IMG/VR virus record: IMGVR_UViG_3300030104_004631
Span: 24,153 to 88,152 of that record
Length of the DNA: 64,000 nt
Reading direction: 5' to 3' (one strand)
Origin: a virus
Positions 45,926 to 64,000 of the stretch are shown here, piece after piece. The number at the start of each line of letters is the position of its first letter. The first letter of the stretch is position 1. The notes under the pieces are model-generated. The model was given only the letters and a program-made list of their open reading frames with translations, was not told the DNA's origin and did not search any database. Position numbers and translations under genes: made by a program.

Positions 45926-47314
45926 ATGTCTATTAAACAACTCCAAGAAAAGTGGGCACCCGTTCTGAATCACGAAGCTCTTGACGAGATTAAGGATTCA
46001 CATAAGCGTGGCGTAGTCGCACAACTTCTTGAAAACCAAGAAAAAGCACAGATCGAAGAAGGACAAGTCCTTAATGAGACTCTGCAAACAACAGGTTATA
46101 CCAATGCAAACACAGCTACTGGCGGTGTTGCAGGTTTTGACCCAGTATTGATCAGTCTAATTAGACGTTCAATGCCACAACTAATTGCATATGATATCGC
46201 TGGCGTTCAGCCAATGACTGGTCCTACTGGACTTATCTTTGCGATGAGAACTAACTACGGTTCAGAGCGTAGACCTGCGAACAGTGACTTCAGAGAAGCA
46301 ATGTTCAACGAGCCTAACGCTGGTTTCTCTGGTGGAAAGGGCACAGGATTATCAAACTACGATCCTACTGCTTCTTCTTCTGGTGTTAACGACGCTGAAG
46401 GTGCTAACCCAGGACTTCTTAACGATTCACCTGCTGGTACTTACGAAAGGACTGGTGATGCTACTGGTATGACAACCGCTACGGTTGAAGCACTAGATGA
46501 TTCATCAGCGAACAACGAATTCCGTGAAATGGGATTCGCCATTGAGAAGGTAACTGTAACAGCCAGAGCACGTGCTCTAAAAGCTGAGTACAGCATTGAG
46601 CTTGCTCAGGACTTGAAAGCGATTCATGGTCTTGATGCCGAGCAAGAGCTAAGCAACATTCTCTCAACAGAGATCCTTGCTGAAATCAACAGAGAAGTTG
46701 TTAGAACTATCTACACAAACGCTGTTGCTGGTGCTCAGAACAATACTGCTACTGCTGGTATCTTCGACCTTGACGTTGACTCTAATGGTAGGTGGTCAGT
46801 TGAGAAATTCAAAGGACTTCTTTTCCAGATAGAAAGAGATGCTAACGCTATCGGTCAGCAAACTCGTCGTGGGAAGGGCAACATCCTCATCTGCTCTGCT
46901 GATGTGGCTTCTGCTCTTGGAATGGCTGGTGTACTAGATTACACACCTGCTCTTTCTGGTAACAACGCATTAACAAATGTAGATGATACTTCTTCTACTC
47001 TAGTTGGTACTCTTAACGGTAAGATTAAGGTATACGTTGATCCTTATTCTGCTAACGTTGCTGATAAGCACTTCTACGTTGCTGGATACAAAGGTACTTC
47101 ACCTTATGATGCTGGATTATTCTATTGCCCATATGTACCTCTACAGCAGGTCAGAGCAATTAATCCTGACACCTTCCAACCAAAAATTGGATTTAAGACT
47201 CGTTACGGTATGGTTTCAAACCCATTCTCAGGTGGTCTTACCCAAGGTTCTGGTGCTCTTACAGCGAATGCTAACAAGTACTACAGACGTACACAAGTTG
47301 CTAACATCATGTAA
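45926..47314 (+). CDS. gp23: Major capsid protein gp23
   Basis: FDPVLISL.RR.MP; GVQPM.GPTGLIFAMR; ELAQDLKAIHGLDAE.EL; FQPKIGFKTRYG. Confidence 0.98.
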   Translation: MSIKQLQEKWAPVLNHEALDEIKDSHKRGVVAQLLENQEKAQIEEGQVLNETLQTTGYTNANTATGGVAGFDPVLISLIRRSMPQLIAYDIAGVQPMTGPTGLIFAMRTNYGSERRPANSDFREAMFNEPNAGFSGGKGTGLSNYDPTASSSGVNDAEGANPGLLNDSPAGTYERTGDATGMTTATVEALDDSSANNEFREMGFAIEKVTVTARARALKAEYSIELAQDLKAIHGLDAEQELSNILSTEILAEINREVVRTIYTNAVAGAQNNTATAGIFDLDVDSNGRWSVEKFKGLLFQIERDANAIGQQTRRGKGNILICSADVASALGMAGVLDYTPALSGNNALTNVDDTSSTLVGTLNGKIKVYVDPYSANVADKHFYVAGYKGTSPYDAGLFYCPYVPLQQVRAINPDTFQPKIGFKTRYGMVSNPFSGGLTQGSGALTANANKYYRRTQVANIM

Positions 47315-47340
47315 TTTGGTGTTATTAACACATAACTTTA

Positions 47341-47367
47341 AAGAGACCCTAAGGGGTCTCTTTTTTT
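47341..47367 (+). terminator. Rho-independent terminator after gp23
   Basis: AAGAGACCC-TAAG-GGGTCTCTT followed by a T run. Confidence 0.85.
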
Positions 47368-47368
47368 G

Positions 47369-47376
47369 TATAAATA
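47369..47376 (+). promoter_or_regulatory. Late promoter TATAAATA for the aaRS-like/tRNA unit
   Basis: Exact match just after the gp23 terminator, 20 nt before ATG 47397. Confidence 0.75.
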
Positions 47377-47396
47377 TCTCAGTTTGACCAATAATA

Positions 47397-48194
47397 ATGA
47401 CAAGTCTAATTGACCCAAGAAAATACTCCGATGCAGTTGACCTATTAAGGTCATTTTTTTTGTCTAAAAATTTTCTAGAAGTCCATACTCAGAATCGTTT
47501 AAGTATACTTGCTGCCTGTGAAGATCCAGAAACAGTAGCAACATATAACTACGGTGGTAATATATGGCCACTACCACAGACAGGACAGATGTGGTTAGAA
47601 CATGAATTACTTTCTAACCCCAAAGAAGAGGGGTTTTTTTGTGTCTCAACATCATACAGAGCAGAACCTAATCCAGTACCAGGCAGACATGAAACTATAT
47701 TCCCCATGTTTGAATTTGAAATGAAGGGAGGTGTTGAAGAACTTAAATTAATGGAGATAGAATTGTGCGAATGGTTAGGTCTACCATTAGACAAAGGAAA
47801 TATACAGACTTATGATGATTGGACTAATCAATTTAACACTAAAGAACTAGACCATGATCACGAAGAAAAGATTGGTCGTGGTATGATTACTGACTTCCCT
47901 GAGTGGACATCGCCTTTCTGGAACATGGCACGTAATGAAGATGGTACCAGTAAGAAGATTGATGTTATATTAAATGGTATGGAAACTATCGGTAGTGCTG
48001 AACGTAGTACTGATAAAGATCAGATGCGTGATACATTCTATACTATATCAGATGGACAGTATGCTCAACTGATTATTGATTTGTTTGGTAGAAGTAGGGT
48101 AGAAGCAGAACTTGAAAAGTTCTTATCATTTGACTTCTTCCCTAGATCTGGTGGAGGCATCGGAATGACTCGTATAATATCAGCCCTTGAATAG
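47397..48194 (+). CDS. Class IIb aminoacyl-tRNA synthetase-like protein (Asn/Asp type), catalytic domain only
   Basis: Motif 1 LRSFFLSKNFLEVHT; LPQTGQMWLE; motif 2 SYRAE...GRHETIFPMFEFE; ETIGSAER; motif 3 PRSGGGIGMTR. At 265 aa it has no N-terminal OB anticodon-binding domain. Confidence 0.85.
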   Translation: MTSLIDPRKYSDAVDLLRSFFLSKNFLEVHTQNRLSILAACEDPETVATYNYGGNIWPLPQTGQMWLEHELLSNPKEEGFFCVSTSYRAEPNPVPGRHETIFPMFEFEMKGGVEELKLMEIELCEWLGLPLDKGNIQTYDDWTNQFNTKELDHDHEEKIGRGMITDFPEWTSPFWNMARNEDGTSKKIDVILNGMETIGSAERSTDKDQMRDTFYTISDGQYAQLIIDLFGRSRVEAELEKFLSFDFFPRSGGGIGMTRIISALE

Positions 48195-48201
48195 GGCTCT
48201 T

Positions 48202-48286
48202 TGTGAGGTGGCGAAACGGTAAACGCTCTAGTCTGTTTAACTAGTGTCTCTGGCGGGACTTGTAGGTTCGACTCCTACCCTCACAG
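48202..48286 (+). tRNA. tRNA with GUU (Asn) anticodon and atypical long variable arm; CCA not encoded
   Basis: Acceptor TGTGAGG/CCTCACA + G73; D-arm GCG..CGC; anticodon stem CTAGT/ACTAG with loop CTGTTTA; variable stem GTCTC/GGGAC; T-arm GTAGG-TTCGACT-CCTAC. Confidence 0.9.
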
Positions 48287-63831: not shown

Positions 63832-64000
63832 CTTATGAAAAGCACAAAGCGACCCTTCTCAAACTCCTAAAGGAGAGAGCATATAAAAAGGGAGCGTATA
63901 CATTATCATCTGGCAAACGCTCAGAACATTATGTTAATTGTAAACCTGTAACACTATCGTGTGAGGGTAATGCACTCCTATCATCATTGATTTATAGTGA
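63828..64000 (+). CDS. pyrE: Orotate phosphoribosyltransferase, 3'-truncated by the window
   Basis: MTYEKHKATLLKLLKERAYKKGAYTLSSGKRSEHYVNCKPVTL matches the PyrE N-terminal G.F.LSSG..S..Y motif; ATGA-coupled to gp44. Confidence 0.75.
   Translation, partial: MTYEKHKATLLKLLKERAYKKGAYTLSSGKRSEHYVNCKPVTLSCEGNALLSSLIYS

What the first reader, a model, noticed from the sequence alone, without database searches (positions are those of the whole stretch)
47369..48286. Candidate new system: anticodon-domain-less Asn/Asp-type synthetase paralogue co-transcribed with a chimeric tRNA
Seen: after the gp23 terminator come a late promoter (TATAAATA 47369), a 265-aa class IIb aaRS catalytic core with motifs 1-3 but no anticodon-binding OB domain, and a GUU-anticodon tRNA with an abnormal body starting 7 nt after the stop. 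The stop sits inside a hairpin (AGCCCT-TGAAT-AGGGCT, 48182-48198) that abuts the tRNA 5' end. Known: stand-alone class IIb cores include archaeal asparagine synthetase (AS-AR) and EpmA, and neither charges tRNA. Inference: an enzyme that cannot read an anticodon, paired with a tRNA carrying an extra recognition arm, looks like a dedicated orthogonal enzyme-tRNA pair. It could perform direct Asn/Asp charging during late virion synthesis, supply Asn, or transfer an amino acid in a non-ribosomal tRNA-dependent reaction.
Basis: partly seen in the sequence, partly recalled or inferred. Interest (0 to 1): 0.92.

Follow-up and report, generated by a model that had tools for sequence, protein, structure and literature searches.

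The report
Phage AsnRS-like enzyme with captive tRNA
A marine cyanobacterial virus carries a self-contained cassette of a cut-down asparagine-tRNA-synthetase look-alike and an oddly built asparagine tRNA that always travel together, and the enzyme's relatives elsewhere sit among pyrimidine-synthesis genes, so the pair is probably an untested enzyme-plus-tRNA metabolic module, not a spare charging enzyme.

Summary
The window is 98.6% identical to Prochlorococcus phage P-SSM7, where the two genes are annotated 'tRNA ligase' and tRNA-Asn. No paper I found explains them. This scan had already reported the same cassette on other genomes.

Shown here:
- **Linkage, enzyme to tRNA:** the enzyme (X) is followed by the long-armed GUU tRNA in 76 of 76 assessable phage loci.
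- **Linkage, tRNA to enzyme:** the tRNA is preceded by X in 96 of 96 assessable loci.
- **Second clade:** the pairing recurs in an X clade only 41% identical.
- **tRNA:** its cloverleaf covaries. G34, U35, U36, U37 and G73 never change.
- **Cassette:** it carries its own late-type promoter (66/66) and a hairpin over the stop codon (56/56).
- **Other X homologues:** none has such a tRNA beside it (0 of 80 cellular loci). They lie next to pyrD and pyrE/pyrF, or are fused to them.
- **X-bearing genomes:** they mostly lack pyrB and keep a normal AsnRS.
- **X-bearing cyanophages:** they also carry pyrE.

Best reading (0.4): X is an Asn-type adenylate-forming enzyme of the orotate branch, and the tRNA supplies Asn. 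Main rival (0.25): a private charging pair for translation. No activity is known.

The parts
47340..47368 (+). Intrinsic-terminator-like hairpin plus T run that ends the gp23 (major capsid) transcript. It marks the upstream border of the cassette.
   Evidence: stem 47340-47363, 10 pairs, then a T run; the gp23-like ORF ends at 47314.
47369..47376 (+). T4-type late-promoter-like motif TATAAATA, 21 nt before the ATG.
   Evidence: a [T/C/A]TAAATA motif lies 27-31 nt before the ATG in 66 of 66 unique upstream regions (22 TATAAATA, 43 NCTAAATA, 1 GATAAATA). Majority-base conservation is 0.37-0.39 upstream of -36 and 0.58-0.70 downstream. That it acts as a promoter is inferred.
47377..47396 (+). Conserved short leader (contains AGTTTG) between the promoter motif and the start codon.
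   Evidence: mean majority fraction 0.70 over -20..-1 across 66 unique sequences, although the upstream contexts are unrelated.
47397..48194 (+). Enzyme X: a 265-aa stand-alone class IIb aminoacyl-tRNA-synthetase-like catalytic core of AsnRS type. It has no anticodon-binding domain and is very acidic (pI 4.6, net charge -20).
   Evidence: PHROG 29758, E 1.4e-182, function unknown; best solved relatives are AsnRS 2xti (E 7e-14) and archaeal/eukaryal AspRS; alignment with real AsnRS, AspRS and LysRS; charge. GenBank calls it 'tRNA ligase' in P-SSM7.
48182..48198 (+). Hairpin (6-bp stem, 5-nt loop) that encloses the stop codon TAG (48192-48194) and ends 3 nt before the tRNA.
   Evidence: a hairpin over the stop codon in 56 of 56 unique junctions, with compensating stem variants. 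The gap from stop to tRNA is 7-12 nt.
48202..48286 (+). Captive tRNA, 85 nt. It has U1-A72, G73, a 3-bp D stem, anticodon GUU (48235-48237) and U37 (48238). The variable arm is a 5-bp stem with a 4-nt loop (48246-48259). No CCA is encoded.
   Evidence: covariation. G34, U35, U36, U37 and G73 in 53 of 53; C33 in 8 of 53; the best matches of its model in two huge phages are tRNA-Leu genes.
63864..63992 (+). 5' end of a pyrE (orotate phosphoribosyltransferase) gene, cut off by the end of the record. Probable functional partner of X.
   Evidence: G000 88016-88144, model positions 3-45, 24.4 bits, below the cut-off because it is cut. P-SSM7 has the full gene 16 kb after X.

Best explanation
The locus is a self-contained, mobile cassette: late-type promoter, short leader, enzyme X, a hairpin over the stop codon, and a captive tRNA.

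**What X is.** X is an ATP-using, adenylate-forming enzyme descended from the AsnRS catalytic domain. Its pocket looks Asn-type. It belongs to a large uncharacterised family whose cellular and giant-virus members work with the last enzymes of pyrimidine synthesis (PyrD, PyrE, PyrF), mostly in genomes without aspartate carbamoyltransferase. It is therefore not a housekeeping synthetase.

**How I think the phage uses it.**
1. The tRNA carries the acceptor end and anticodon of tRNA-Asn on a Leu-like long-arm body. I propose that the host's aspartyl-tRNA synthetase loads it with Asp.
2. GatCAB then amidates the Asp to Asn on the tRNA.
3. The tRNA hands that Asn to X through its acceptor end.
4. 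The product of X feeds the orotate branch, together with the phage's own PyrE.
5. After RNase P cuts at the tRNA 5' end, the stop hairpin would protect the 3' end of the X mRNA.

**Shown:** the anatomy, the two-way linkage, the covariation, the family's pyrimidine association, and the co-occurrence with pyrE.

**Inferred:** the substrate, the direction of transfer between X and the tRNA, the chemistry (one consistent idea is that dihydroorotate is formally asparagine with a carbonyl bridging its two nitrogens), and the role of the hairpin.
For: **Linkage**
- 76 of 76 phage loci with at least 100 nt after X hold the tRNA. ARAGORN called GTT in 69; the other 7 were seen in the alignment.
- Conversely, of 118 IMG/VR loci that match a tRNA pattern, 4 are chance hits and 114 are this tRNA. 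96 have X upstream, 18 have no upstream DNA, and none lacks X.
- A second X clade, 41% identical, has the same kind of tRNA in 2 of 2 contigs.

**tRNA under selection**
- 99.8% of cells paired, 18 of 24 pairs compensatory.
- G34, U35, U36, U37 and G73 in 53 of 53.
- U1-A72 is the bacterial GatCAB determinant (Bailly 2006, abstract read).
- The host strain NATL1A has aspS and gatA (passages).

**X is catalytic and AsnRS-like**
- The motif 2 Arg, the motif 3 Arg and the acidic residues are nearly invariant.
- X has Leu where AspRS has Lys after the Q..Q motif, and E-x-E where AspRS has D-x-E.

**Pyrimidine link in the wider family**
- Fusions to DHODH and to OMP decarboxylase.
- DHODH or OMPDC within the locus in 16 of 80 cellular loci.
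- The top three Pfam families among 137 immediate neighbours are DHO_dh (8), OMPdecase (7) and Pribosyltran (7).
- Colinear pyrD, pyrE-pyrF and X.
- A giant-virus contig with X, OMPDC and DHODH in a row.
- pyrB found in 0 of 5, then 4 of 50, X-bearing genomes, against 14 of 14 controls.
- 19 of 27 genomes with DHODH have no pyrB-like match at all.
- Canonical AsnRS in 4 of 5.

**Pyrimidine link in the phages**
- pyrE in 8 of 10 X-bearing cyanophage records, counting the cut copy in this window.
- Among named phage isolates, the three with pyrE are the three with X.

**RNA libraries**
- Contigs from two marine RNA libraries bridge the ORF-tRNA junction. This is weak evidence, because DNA carry-over is not excluded.
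Against: - No enzyme activity is known for any member, and I know of no precedent for the proposed chemistry.
- The pyrimidine link is not universal:
  - DHODH was found in only 27 of 50 X-bearing genomes;
  - 4 of 50 have a normal pyrB;
  - 64 of 80 cellular loci show no pyr gene nearby;
  - these are MAGs of unknown completeness.
- Two X-bearing phage fragments (G010, G062) showed no pyrE. Neither did the second tRNA-linked clade's contig, G009.
- A late-type promoter suits a role in late protein synthesis better than nucleotide supply.
- Neither this reading nor the rival explains the invariant U37.
- The second clade's tRNA has A1-U72, not U1-A72.
- I could not test whether Prochlorococcus lacks AsnRS and asparagine synthetase. 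That rests on earlier scan notes and recall.
- X keeps the ATP-binding residues, which a pure user of Asn-tRNA would not need.
Confidence: 0.4

Rival explanations
1. Private charging pair for translation. X is a minimal AsnRS that cannot read an anticodon. It loads Asn directly onto its own long-armed tRNA(GUU), using the acceptor end (G73, 1-72 pair) and perhaps the variable arm as a handle. This would supply Asn-tRNA for late virion protein synthesis in a host that makes Asn-tRNA only by the slower indirect route.
For: - Catalytic motifs are intact and the diagnostic pocket residues are AsnRS-type.
- Two-way linkage is complete, and the pairing recurs in a clade 41% identical.
- The GUU anticodon is invariant, and the T and D loops are canonical.
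- The cassette has its own late-type promoter in 66 of 66.
- This is the only tRNA of P-SSM2, P-SSM5 and the 150-kb contig G010.
- A known precedent exists for an aaRS paralogue encoded beside an anomalous tRNA: ProRSx/tRNA-ProX (abstract read).
Against: - Relatives 45-57% identical in cells, giant viruses and other phages have no such tRNA beside them. A model of the tRNA found none anywhere in the five whole viral records searched.
- Carriers keep a full AsnRS (4 of 5).
- The family, and the phages themselves, are tied to pyrimidine genes.
- U37 is invariant, and C33 occurs in 8 of 53. Both are poor for decoding A-starting codons (the role of a purine at 37 is recalled).
- The protein is very acidic, net charge -20.
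- If the host really has no asparagine synthetase, free Asn for direct charging would be scarce (untested).
Confidence: 0.25
2. X is a non-catalytic or accessory partner of orotate phosphoribosyltransferase, as the HisRS paralogue HisZ is for the ATP phosphoribosyltransferase HisG. The tRNA is then an ordinary extra decoding tRNA that happens to travel with it.
For: - In cyanophages the co-occurring set is X plus pyrE, without pyrD or pyrF.
- In bacteria X abuts pyrE-pyrF fusions and a DHODH-OPRT fusion.
- HisZ is a known stand-alone class II paralogue without an anticodon domain that regulates a phosphoribosyltransferase (recalled).
Against: - X keeps nearly invariant ATP- and substrate-binding residues of an active class II enzyme.
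- This reading does not explain the lack of pyrB in carriers.
- It does not explain the strict two-way linkage and co-evolution with an abnormal tRNA.
Confidence: 0.1
3. The tRNA is mainly a cis-acting RNA element: an RNase P processing site and 3'-end stabiliser for the X mRNA, or a recombination target that makes the cassette mobile. It has no direct biochemical partnership with X.
For: - The conserved hairpin lies directly before the tRNA (56 of 56).
- The cassette sits in many unrelated contexts.
- Sullivan et al. 2010 note that tRNA genes co-occur with non-syntenic regions and may serve recombination (passage read).
- In 5 loci the hairpin is replaced by other inserts between X and the tRNA.
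Against: - A mere processing signal would not keep G34, U35, U36, U37, G73 and the 1-72 pair fixed over 53 variants while the stems covary.
- It would not be re-created on a different Leu-like body in a clade 41% identical.
- Any tRNA would serve, yet it is always this type.
Confidence: 0.1
4. Dual-identity tRNA. The long-arm body with G73 is charged by the host SerRS (or LeuRS), which do not read the anticodon. Asn codons would then be partly read as Ser or Leu late in infection. X is unrelated or modulates this.
For: - The body is of type II and Leu-like.
- G73 and a long variable arm are serine-tRNA features (recalled).
- Natural mistranslating tRNAs encoded beside aaRS paralogues are known (abstract read).
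Against: - In the known cases the neighbouring aaRS matches the tRNA body, not the anticodon. Here X is Asn-type and so is the anticodon.
- A73, the Leu discriminator (recalled), is absent.
- Proteome-wide Asn substitution in capsid genes seems costly.
- Nothing links X to this.
Confidence: 0.05

Closest known systems
Asparaginyl-tRNA synthetase, class IIb catalytic domain (closest solved: Brugia 2XTI/2XGT, human 8TC7/5XIX, P. horikoshii 1X54)
   Same: - Same fold family (Pfam PF00152).
- Motif 2 reads RAE...RH. Motif 3 Arg is present.
- Has the E-x-E and E..G-S-x-R elements.
- Has Leu/Glu after the Q..Q motif, as in AsnRS and unlike AspRS.
   Different: - No N-terminal OB anticodon-binding domain.
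- About 60-70 residues shorter between motifs 2 and 3.
- Has an extra conserved segment (DGxYA...FGKERV) before motif 3.
- Scores 18 bits against the asnS cut-off of 342.6.
- Cellular carriers have a separate full AsnRS.
Archaeal asparagine synthetase AS-AR and AsnA (stand-alone class II cores that make free Asn; 3P8T, 1NNH)
   Same: A stand-alone class IIb-type core without an anticodon domain. These are precedents for a metabolic, non-charging use of the fold.
   Different: - Much weaker sequence match (profile E 1.3e-6 and 2.9e-5, against 7e-14 for AsnRS).
- 17 bits against a cut-off of 389 for NF005055.
- AS-AR and AsnA have no partner tRNA and, as far as I recall, no pyrimidine-gene association.
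EpmA (PoxA/GenX), the LysRS paralogue that lysylates EF-P
   Same: A truncated class IIb core that transfers an activated amino acid to a non-tRNA acceptor.
   Different: Weak match only (17.1 bits against a cut-off of 264; PDB 3G1Z and 3A5Z at E about 1e-4). X has an Asn-type rather than a Lys-type pocket.
ProRSx with tRNA-ProX of Streptomyces/Kitasatospora (Schuntermann et al. 2023, PMC10404621; abstract read)
   Same: A distinct aaRS isoform, sometimes truncated, encoded next to a chimeric tRNA that combines the body of one identity with the anticodon of another.
   Different: - There the synthetase matches the tRNA body (Pro) and the anticodon belongs to another amino acid, which causes mistranslation.
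- Here the enzyme type and the anticodon agree (Asn) and the body is foreign (Leu-like).
- X lacks any anticodon domain, and its family is tied to pyrimidine genes.
tRNA-dependent asparagine synthesis: non-discriminating AspRS plus GatCAB acting on tRNA-Asn (Bailly et al. 2006, PMC1635274; abstract read)
   Same: - The phage tRNA keeps U1-A72 (the GatCAB determinant), G73 and GUU.
- The concept of a tRNA as cofactor for making an amino acid.
   Different: - The carrier here would be a dedicated tRNA of type II body with U37.
- It is encoded with an AsnRS-like enzyme that may consume the Asn.
- None of this has been shown.
HisZ, the HisRS paralogue that regulates ATP phosphoribosyltransferase (recalled)
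   Same: A class II paralogue without an anticodon domain that works with a phosphoribosyltransferase of nucleotide or amino-acid biosynthesis. X co-occurs with PyrE.
   Different: X keeps the catalytic residues of an active adenylate-forming enzyme. It belongs to class IIb, not IIa.

Membership tests
Canonical AsnRS (class IIb) | Class II catalytic core with motifs 1-3 | tested here: met
   Pfam PF00152, E 2e-13. The alignment with two real AsnRS shows the motif 1 helix, motif 2 RAE..RH and motif 3 G-x-G-x-x-R.
Canonical AsnRS (class IIb) | N-terminal OB-fold anticodon-binding domain | tested here: not met
   The 265-aa protein aligns only from the start of the catalytic domain. No other Pfam domain was found.
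Canonical AsnRS (class IIb) | Scores above the curated asnS models | tested here: not met
   TIGR00457: 18 bits against a cut-off of 342.6. NF003037: 17.3 against 414.
Canonical AsnRS (class IIb) | Aminoacylates tRNA-Asn with Asn | not testable with these tools
   Needs a biochemical assay.
Asparagine synthetase A / AS-AR | Scores above the curated model, or is the closest solved relative | tested here: not met
   NF005055: 17 bits against a cut-off of 389. 3P8T at E 1.3e-6 is weaker than AsnRS at 7e-14.
EpmA (EF-P lysine ligase) | Scores above the curated model | tested here: not met
   NF006828: 17.1 bits against 264. TIGR00462: 14.4 against 286.9.
PHROG 29758 / T4-like gene cluster 194 ('tRNA ligase') | Full-length match to the family profile | tested here: met
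   E 1.4e-182 over residues 1-265 of the 267-position profile. 100% identical to the P-SSM7 protein annotated T4-GC 194. The family has no assigned function.
Bacterial tRNA-Asn | Anticodon GUU, discriminator G73, U1-A72 | tested here: met
   53 of 53 have G34, U35, U36 and G73, and 52 of 53 have U1-A72. The role of U1-A72 comes from the Bailly 2006 abstract. The role of G73 is recalled.
Bacterial tRNA-Asn | Type I body (short variable loop) and a purine at position 37 | tested here: not met
   The variable region is 14-29 nt with a paired stem. U37 in 53 of 53. Normal tRNA-Asn genes of two huge phages are 74-77 nt with a CTGTTAA loop.
tRNA-Leu (type II) | Leu anticodon and A73 (A73 recalled) | tested here: not met
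   The anticodon is GUU and the discriminator is G. Only the body resembles tRNA-Leu: the top matches of model R1 are tRNA-Leu genes.
aaRS-paralogue plus chimeric-tRNA operons (ProRSx/tRNA-ProX type) | The synthetase type matches the tRNA body while the anticodon belongs to another amino acid | tested here: not met
   The enzyme is Asn-type and the anticodon is Asn. The body is Leu-like. Adjacency of the two genes is met.
Pyrimidine de novo pathway gene set (as a new member) | Conserved neighbourhood or fusion with pyrD, pyrE or pyrF | tested here: met
   - Two fusions.
- 16 of 80 loci have DHODH or OMPDC nearby.
- These are the top three neighbour families.
- Colinear clusters.
- A giant-virus cluster.
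- Phage pyrE co-occurrence.
- The association is partial: 64 of 80 loci show no pyr gene nearby.
Pyrimidine de novo pathway gene set (as a new member) | Catalyses a step that yields dihydroorotate or orotate | not testable with these tools
   Needs an enzyme assay or genetic complementation.

The most novel reading that the evidence does not exclude
X is the founding member of a new entry route into pyrimidine synthesis. It would replace carbamoyl-phosphate synthetase, aspartate carbamoyltransferase and dihydroorotase by making dihydroorotate (formally asparagine with a carbonyl bridging its two nitrogens) from asparagine and ATP.

Ocean cyanophages would have coupled it to a dedicated, non-translating carrier tRNA. 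The host's AspRS and GatCAB build the asparagine on that tRNA. A tRNA would thereby serve as the cofactor of a viral nucleotide-supply pathway.
Probability: 0.2. Interest if true: 0.95.

Novelty: new variant of a known kind. Interest (0 to 1): 0.8.

Why it matters
**Abundance.** The cassette is very common in the ocean.
- All 8000 candidate clusters that were scored passed; that number was capped.
- It is present in marine RNA libraries.
- Yet its function is unknown, and it is annotated only as 'tRNA ligase'.

**Either main reading is of wide interest.**
- A natural minimal synthetase that works without reading an anticodon, with its own tRNA. This would be useful for genetic-code engineering.
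- A tRNA used as a metabolic cofactor by a virus, attached to an enzyme family that may explain how many bacteria, CPR/DPANN symbionts and giant viruses make pyrimidines without aspartate carbamoyltransferase.

**Testability.** Both can be tested directly with a purified 265-aa protein, a tRNA transcript and a cultured phage-host pair (P-SSM7 or P-SSM2 on Prochlorococcus NATL1A).

Tried and rejected
I used the search for related loci instead.

**Searches that failed or found nothing**
- Alignments A2 and A1 were too diverse for the search for related loci. A 10-sequence alignment, A4, worked.
- P0161 found no viral locus.
- My first tRNA DNA pattern was mis-spaced and found nothing. I checked the patterns locally and a corrected one worked.
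I resent it with 50.
- The protein atlas only returned the protein's own viral 'tRNA ligase' clusters and had no model.

**Host asparagine enzymes**
- Whether the host lacks AsnRS, AsnA and AsnB therefore remains untested here. Papers gave only aspS and gatA for NATL1A.

**Literature.** Seven searches found no paper on this enzyme-tRNA pair or on an asparagine route to dihydroorotate.
- Sullivan 2010 lists 'tRNA ligase' in one table row only (passages). It has no pyrE or pyrimidine text.
- PMC3877843 was irrelevant.
- Supplementary files were not opened. The tables of Sullivan 2010 might say more about T4-GC 194.

**Negative or limited results**
- TATAAATA is not enriched in the window by count.
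- RNA-library contigs cannot show transcript ends, strand, processing or CCA addition. Parts without cover mean nothing.
- Sigma-70-like promoter matches were at chance level: 7 against 7.2.

**Readings rejected**
- X as AspRS-like: it lacks the Lys and has E-x-E.
- X as the cell's only AsnRS.
- The huge-phage homologues using a similar tRNA elsewhere in the genome: the best model hits are tRNA-Leu, and their tRNA-Asn genes are normal.

**Rows dropped**
- One search left out L004, L005, L006 (the same record as L001) and L086 (own). It also left out 6 loci with under 100 nt after X.
- lost 4 of 80 loci where my ORF caller missed X.
- Searches used 50 of the 80 loci.


Full report
**1. What is in the window**

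The 1.1 kb around the finding is 98.6% identical to Prochlorococcus phage P-SSM7. The window is the last 64 kb of an 88-kb IMG/VR record.

The features lie in this order:
- The gp23-like ORF (45926-47314).
- A terminator-like hairpin with a T run (47340-47363).
- TATAAATA at 47369-47376.
- A 265-aa ORF, here called X, at 47397-48194.
- A 6-bp hairpin at 48182-48198 that encloses the stop codon.
- Seven bases later, an 85-nt tRNA at 48202-48286 (ARAGORN; Rfam 52.8 bits).

In GenBank the two genes are called 'tRNA ligase' (T4-like gene cluster 194) and tRNA-Asn in P-SSM7, P-SSM2 and P-SSM5. Sullivan et al. 2010 list the 'tRNA ligase' in one table row without comment (passages seen). PHROGs files it as family 29758, function unknown.

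**2. The tRNA**

I aligned 53 distinct copies. On the cloverleaf with a paired variable arm:
- 99.8% of cells pair;
- 18 of 24 pairs show changes on both sides;
- 0 of 500 shuffles reach this, and slid controls fall to 41-49% paired.

Its fixed and variable features:
- G34, U35, U36, U37 and G73 are the same in 53 of 53.
- The first pair is U1-A72 in the cyanophage clade.
- Position 33 is C in 8 of 53.
- The variable region is 14-29 nt.
- No CCA is encoded.

A covariance model of it finds tRNA-Leu genes as its best matches in two huge-phage genomes. The tRNA-Asn genes of those phages are ordinary 74-77-nt tRNAs with a CTGTTAA loop.

So the tRNA is a true chimera. It has the acceptor end and anticodon of tRNA-Asn on a Leu-like type II body, with a pyrimidine at position 37. 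U1-A72 is the determinant for bacterial GatCAB (Bailly et al. 2006, abstract).

**3. Linkage in phages**

- Of the best 80 loci plus three GenBank phages, 76 have at least 100 nt after X, and all 76 hold the tRNA. ARAGORN called GTT in 69. The other 7 have longer variable arms and were seen in the alignment.
- In the reverse direction, a pattern from the tRNA found 120 stretches, of which I read 118.
  - 4 are chance matches in unrelated GC-rich DNA.
  - Of the 114 tRNAs, 96 have X upstream: 79 full, 12 cut by a contig end, and 5 with an insert between X and the tRNA.
  - 18 have no upstream DNA. None lacks X.
- A second X clade is only 41% identical and lies on contigs of a different phage type with an integrase. 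It is followed by the same kind of tRNA in 2 of 2 contigs: a CUGUUUA loop, G73, a long variable arm and an A1-U72 pair.
- The tRNA is the only tRNA in P-SSM2, P-SSM5 and a 150-kb contig.

**4. The cassette**

- The DNA upstream of X differs completely between loci. Even so, a [T/C/A]TAAATA motif lies 27-31 nt before the ATG in 66 of 66 unique upstream regions.
- Conservation drops to background beyond -36.
- The hairpin over the stop codon recurs in 56 of 56 unique junctions with compensating stem variants.
- In P-SSM2 and P-SSM5 the cassette lies in a different neighbourhood from P-SSM7.

It therefore behaves as a mobile unit: promoter, leader, X, hairpin, tRNA.

The count of TATAAATA in the window is itself at chance level, 6 against 6.0 expected, although all six are on the + strand.

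Contigs from two marine RNA libraries bridge the ORF-tRNA junction with at least 31 nt on each side (X2 record 10 and X5 record 22). This fits co-transcription but does not exclude DNA carry-over.

**5. The enzyme**

- *Database scores.* Pfam sees only tRNA-synt_2. All curated AsnRS, AspRS, AsnA, EpmA and LysRS models score far below their cut-offs.
- *Solved relatives.* A family profile finds AsnRS (2XTI, E 7e-14) and archaeal/eukaryal AspRS first. AS-AR comes at 1e-6 and EpmA at 1e-4.
- *Alignment.* I aligned X and relatives with real AsnRS, AspRS and LysRS taken from X-bearing genomes.
  - X begins at the catalytic domain.
  - It keeps the motif 2 RAE..RH, the E-x-E strand, the E..G-S-x-R element and the motif 3 Arg.
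  - At the two positions I recall as separating Asp from Asn recognition it is AsnRS-like: Leu, not Lys, three residues after the second Gln of the Q..Q motif, and Glu, not Asp.
  - It lacks the insertion between motifs 2 and 3.
  - It has its own conserved segment before motif 3.
- *Conservation and charge.* The catalytic residues are nearly invariant across 61 diverse members. The phage proteins are very acidic: median pI 4.67, with net charge -20 for this one.

**6. The wider family**

- At 50% clustering, 656 clusters match (169 at E <= 1e-30).
- 404 stretches occur in one-per-species prokaryote genomes. These include CPR/Patescibacteria, DPANN archaea, Dependentiae, Rickettsiales, Bdellovibrionales, Myxococcota and Aureispira/Saprospiraceae/Chitinophagales.
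- No GTT tRNA lies beside X in any of the following:
  - 0 of 80 cellular loci;
  - 0 of 14 giant-virus and other viral loci;
  - 0 of 6 loci of the marine P0138 clade, whose whole 47-kb record also has no model hit;
  - L094 and L095, whose whole records also have no model hit;
  - the huge phages.
- 4 of 5 X-bearing genomes have a full AsnRS above the cut-off.

So the core function of X does not need this tRNA and is not housekeeping Asn charging.

**7. The pyrimidine link**

I saw the link first in two fused proteins. One is DHODH+X and the other is X+OMP decarboxylase (noted before I read earlier scan notes). I then tested it in several ways.

- *Neighbourhood.*
  - DHODH lies within the locus in 12 of 80 cellular loci and OMPDC in 13 of 80; either one in 16.
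  - Among 137 immediate neighbours from 76 loci, the three commonest Pfam families are DHO_dh (8), OMPdecase (7) and Pribosyltran (7).
- *Named clusters*.
  - pyrD, a pyrE-pyrF fusion and X are colinear in L153.
  - X, pyrEF and pyrD are colinear in a Myxococcota MAG.
  - A DHODH-OPRT fusion lies beside X in L194.
  - A giant-virus contig has X, OMPDC and DHODH in a row.
- *Missing early steps.*
  - pyrB was found in 0 of 5 such genomes, against 14 of 14 controls.
  - DHODH was found in 5 of 5.
  - No dihydroorotase scored above the cut-off in any of the 5.
- *In 50 X-bearing genomes.*
  - DHODH is present in 27.
  - pyrB is above the cut-off in 4.
  - 19 of the 27 have no pyrB-like match at all.
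- *Limits.*
  - These are MAGs of unknown completeness.
  - 23 of the 50 show no DHODH.
  - The association is strong but partial.

**8. The link holds in the phages**

- pyrE is present in P-SSM7 and P-SSM2 and in P-SSM5.
- It is in 4 of 5 long X-bearing IMG/VR contigs, including the one rated complete.
- It is also at the very end of this window, as a cut 5' end at 63864-63992.
- Two fragments, G010 and G062, lack it.
- In the 50,697-record phage collection, pyrE of this type occurs in 13 records: P-SSM7, P-SSM2, P-SSM5, six single-cell viral fragments and one huge phage.
- X occurs in 9 records: the same three isolates and three huge-phage records.
- Among named isolates the two sets coincide. 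Outside them, seven pyrE records show no X and three X records show no pyrE.
- No phage DHODH was found in any of 5 records.

**9. Reading**

Two facts must be reconciled. The enzyme family is tied to the orotate branch and needs no special tRNA. In phages of marine cyanobacteria, however, it is welded to a tRNA that keeps exactly the marks of tRNA-Asn.

My best reading (0.4) has these parts:
- X binds asparagine, or a close analogue, and ATP.
- X acts upstream of PyrD and PyrE.
- The captive tRNA lets the host's AspRS and GatCAB make asparagine on it for X. NATL1A has aspS and gatA.

This borrows the carrier idea from an earlier scan note. It depends on the host lacking other asparagine sources, which I could not test.

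The late-type promoter and the intact catalytic site favour it. Neither reading explains the invariant U37.

Lesser rivals are:
- a HisZ-like partner of PyrE (0.1);
- a tRNA that is only a processing or mobility element (0.1);
- a dual-identity mistranslating tRNA of the ProRSx/tRNA-ProX kind (0.05; abstract read).

**10. Novelty**

The genes are annotated, so their existence is known. The scan has reported the cassette repeatedly on other genomes. Seven literature searches found no study of the pair or of the family's function.

I rate it a new variant of a known kind: an aaRS paralogue with a non-canonical role, and a dedicated enzyme-tRNA pair. It has a real chance (0.2) of being a new pathway step with a tRNA cofactor.

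Noticed in passing
window 47315-47396 compared with L001 3645-4000 (P-SSM7): P-SSM7 has three extra tRNA genes (Ile-TAT, Arg-TCT, Leu-TAA) between gp23 and X. The window has none there and holds only one tRNA in 64 kb. This is an indel polymorphism between phages 98.6% identical.
   Followed up: partly
L262, L277, L294, L303 (between the X stop and the tRNA); L301: In four IMG/VR loci a roughly 95-nt inverted-repeat element lies between X and the tRNA, and the usual stop hairpin is lost. In L301, X has a C-terminal extension followed by a different hairpin.
   Followed up: no
window 47438-47453 and 47616-47635, + strand: Two terminator-like hairpins with T runs lie inside the X coding region. 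Together with the others this makes 5 such sites in 2 kb, against 1.0 expected. I did not check whether they are conserved or act as attenuators.
   Followed up: no
window 63864-63992: The 5' end of pyrE (orotate phosphoribosyltransferase) runs off the end of the record.
   Followed up: partly
L322 1477-1590: In the second tRNA-linked clade the tRNA's first bases overlap the stop codon of X, and there is no stop hairpin.
   Followed up: no
G037 (Absconditabacterales MAG), C1:543609-544487: The DHODH match there has 15 in-frame TGA codons. This fits a genetic code in which TGA is read as an amino acid.
   Followed up: no
L004 5940-7499 and 8311-10317 (huge phage LR756501): Next to X in a 735-kb phage lie a RimK-like ATP-grasp protein and a large protein with a weak phosphoribosyltransferase-domain match (23.3 bits, below the cut-off).
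   Followed up: no
G016, G023, G041, G056 and other CPR genomes of 0.5-0.9 Mb: Several very small Patescibacteria/Saccharibacteria genomes that carry X also have a strong DHODH match (E down to 1.9e-84) but no pyrB match.
   Followed up: partly
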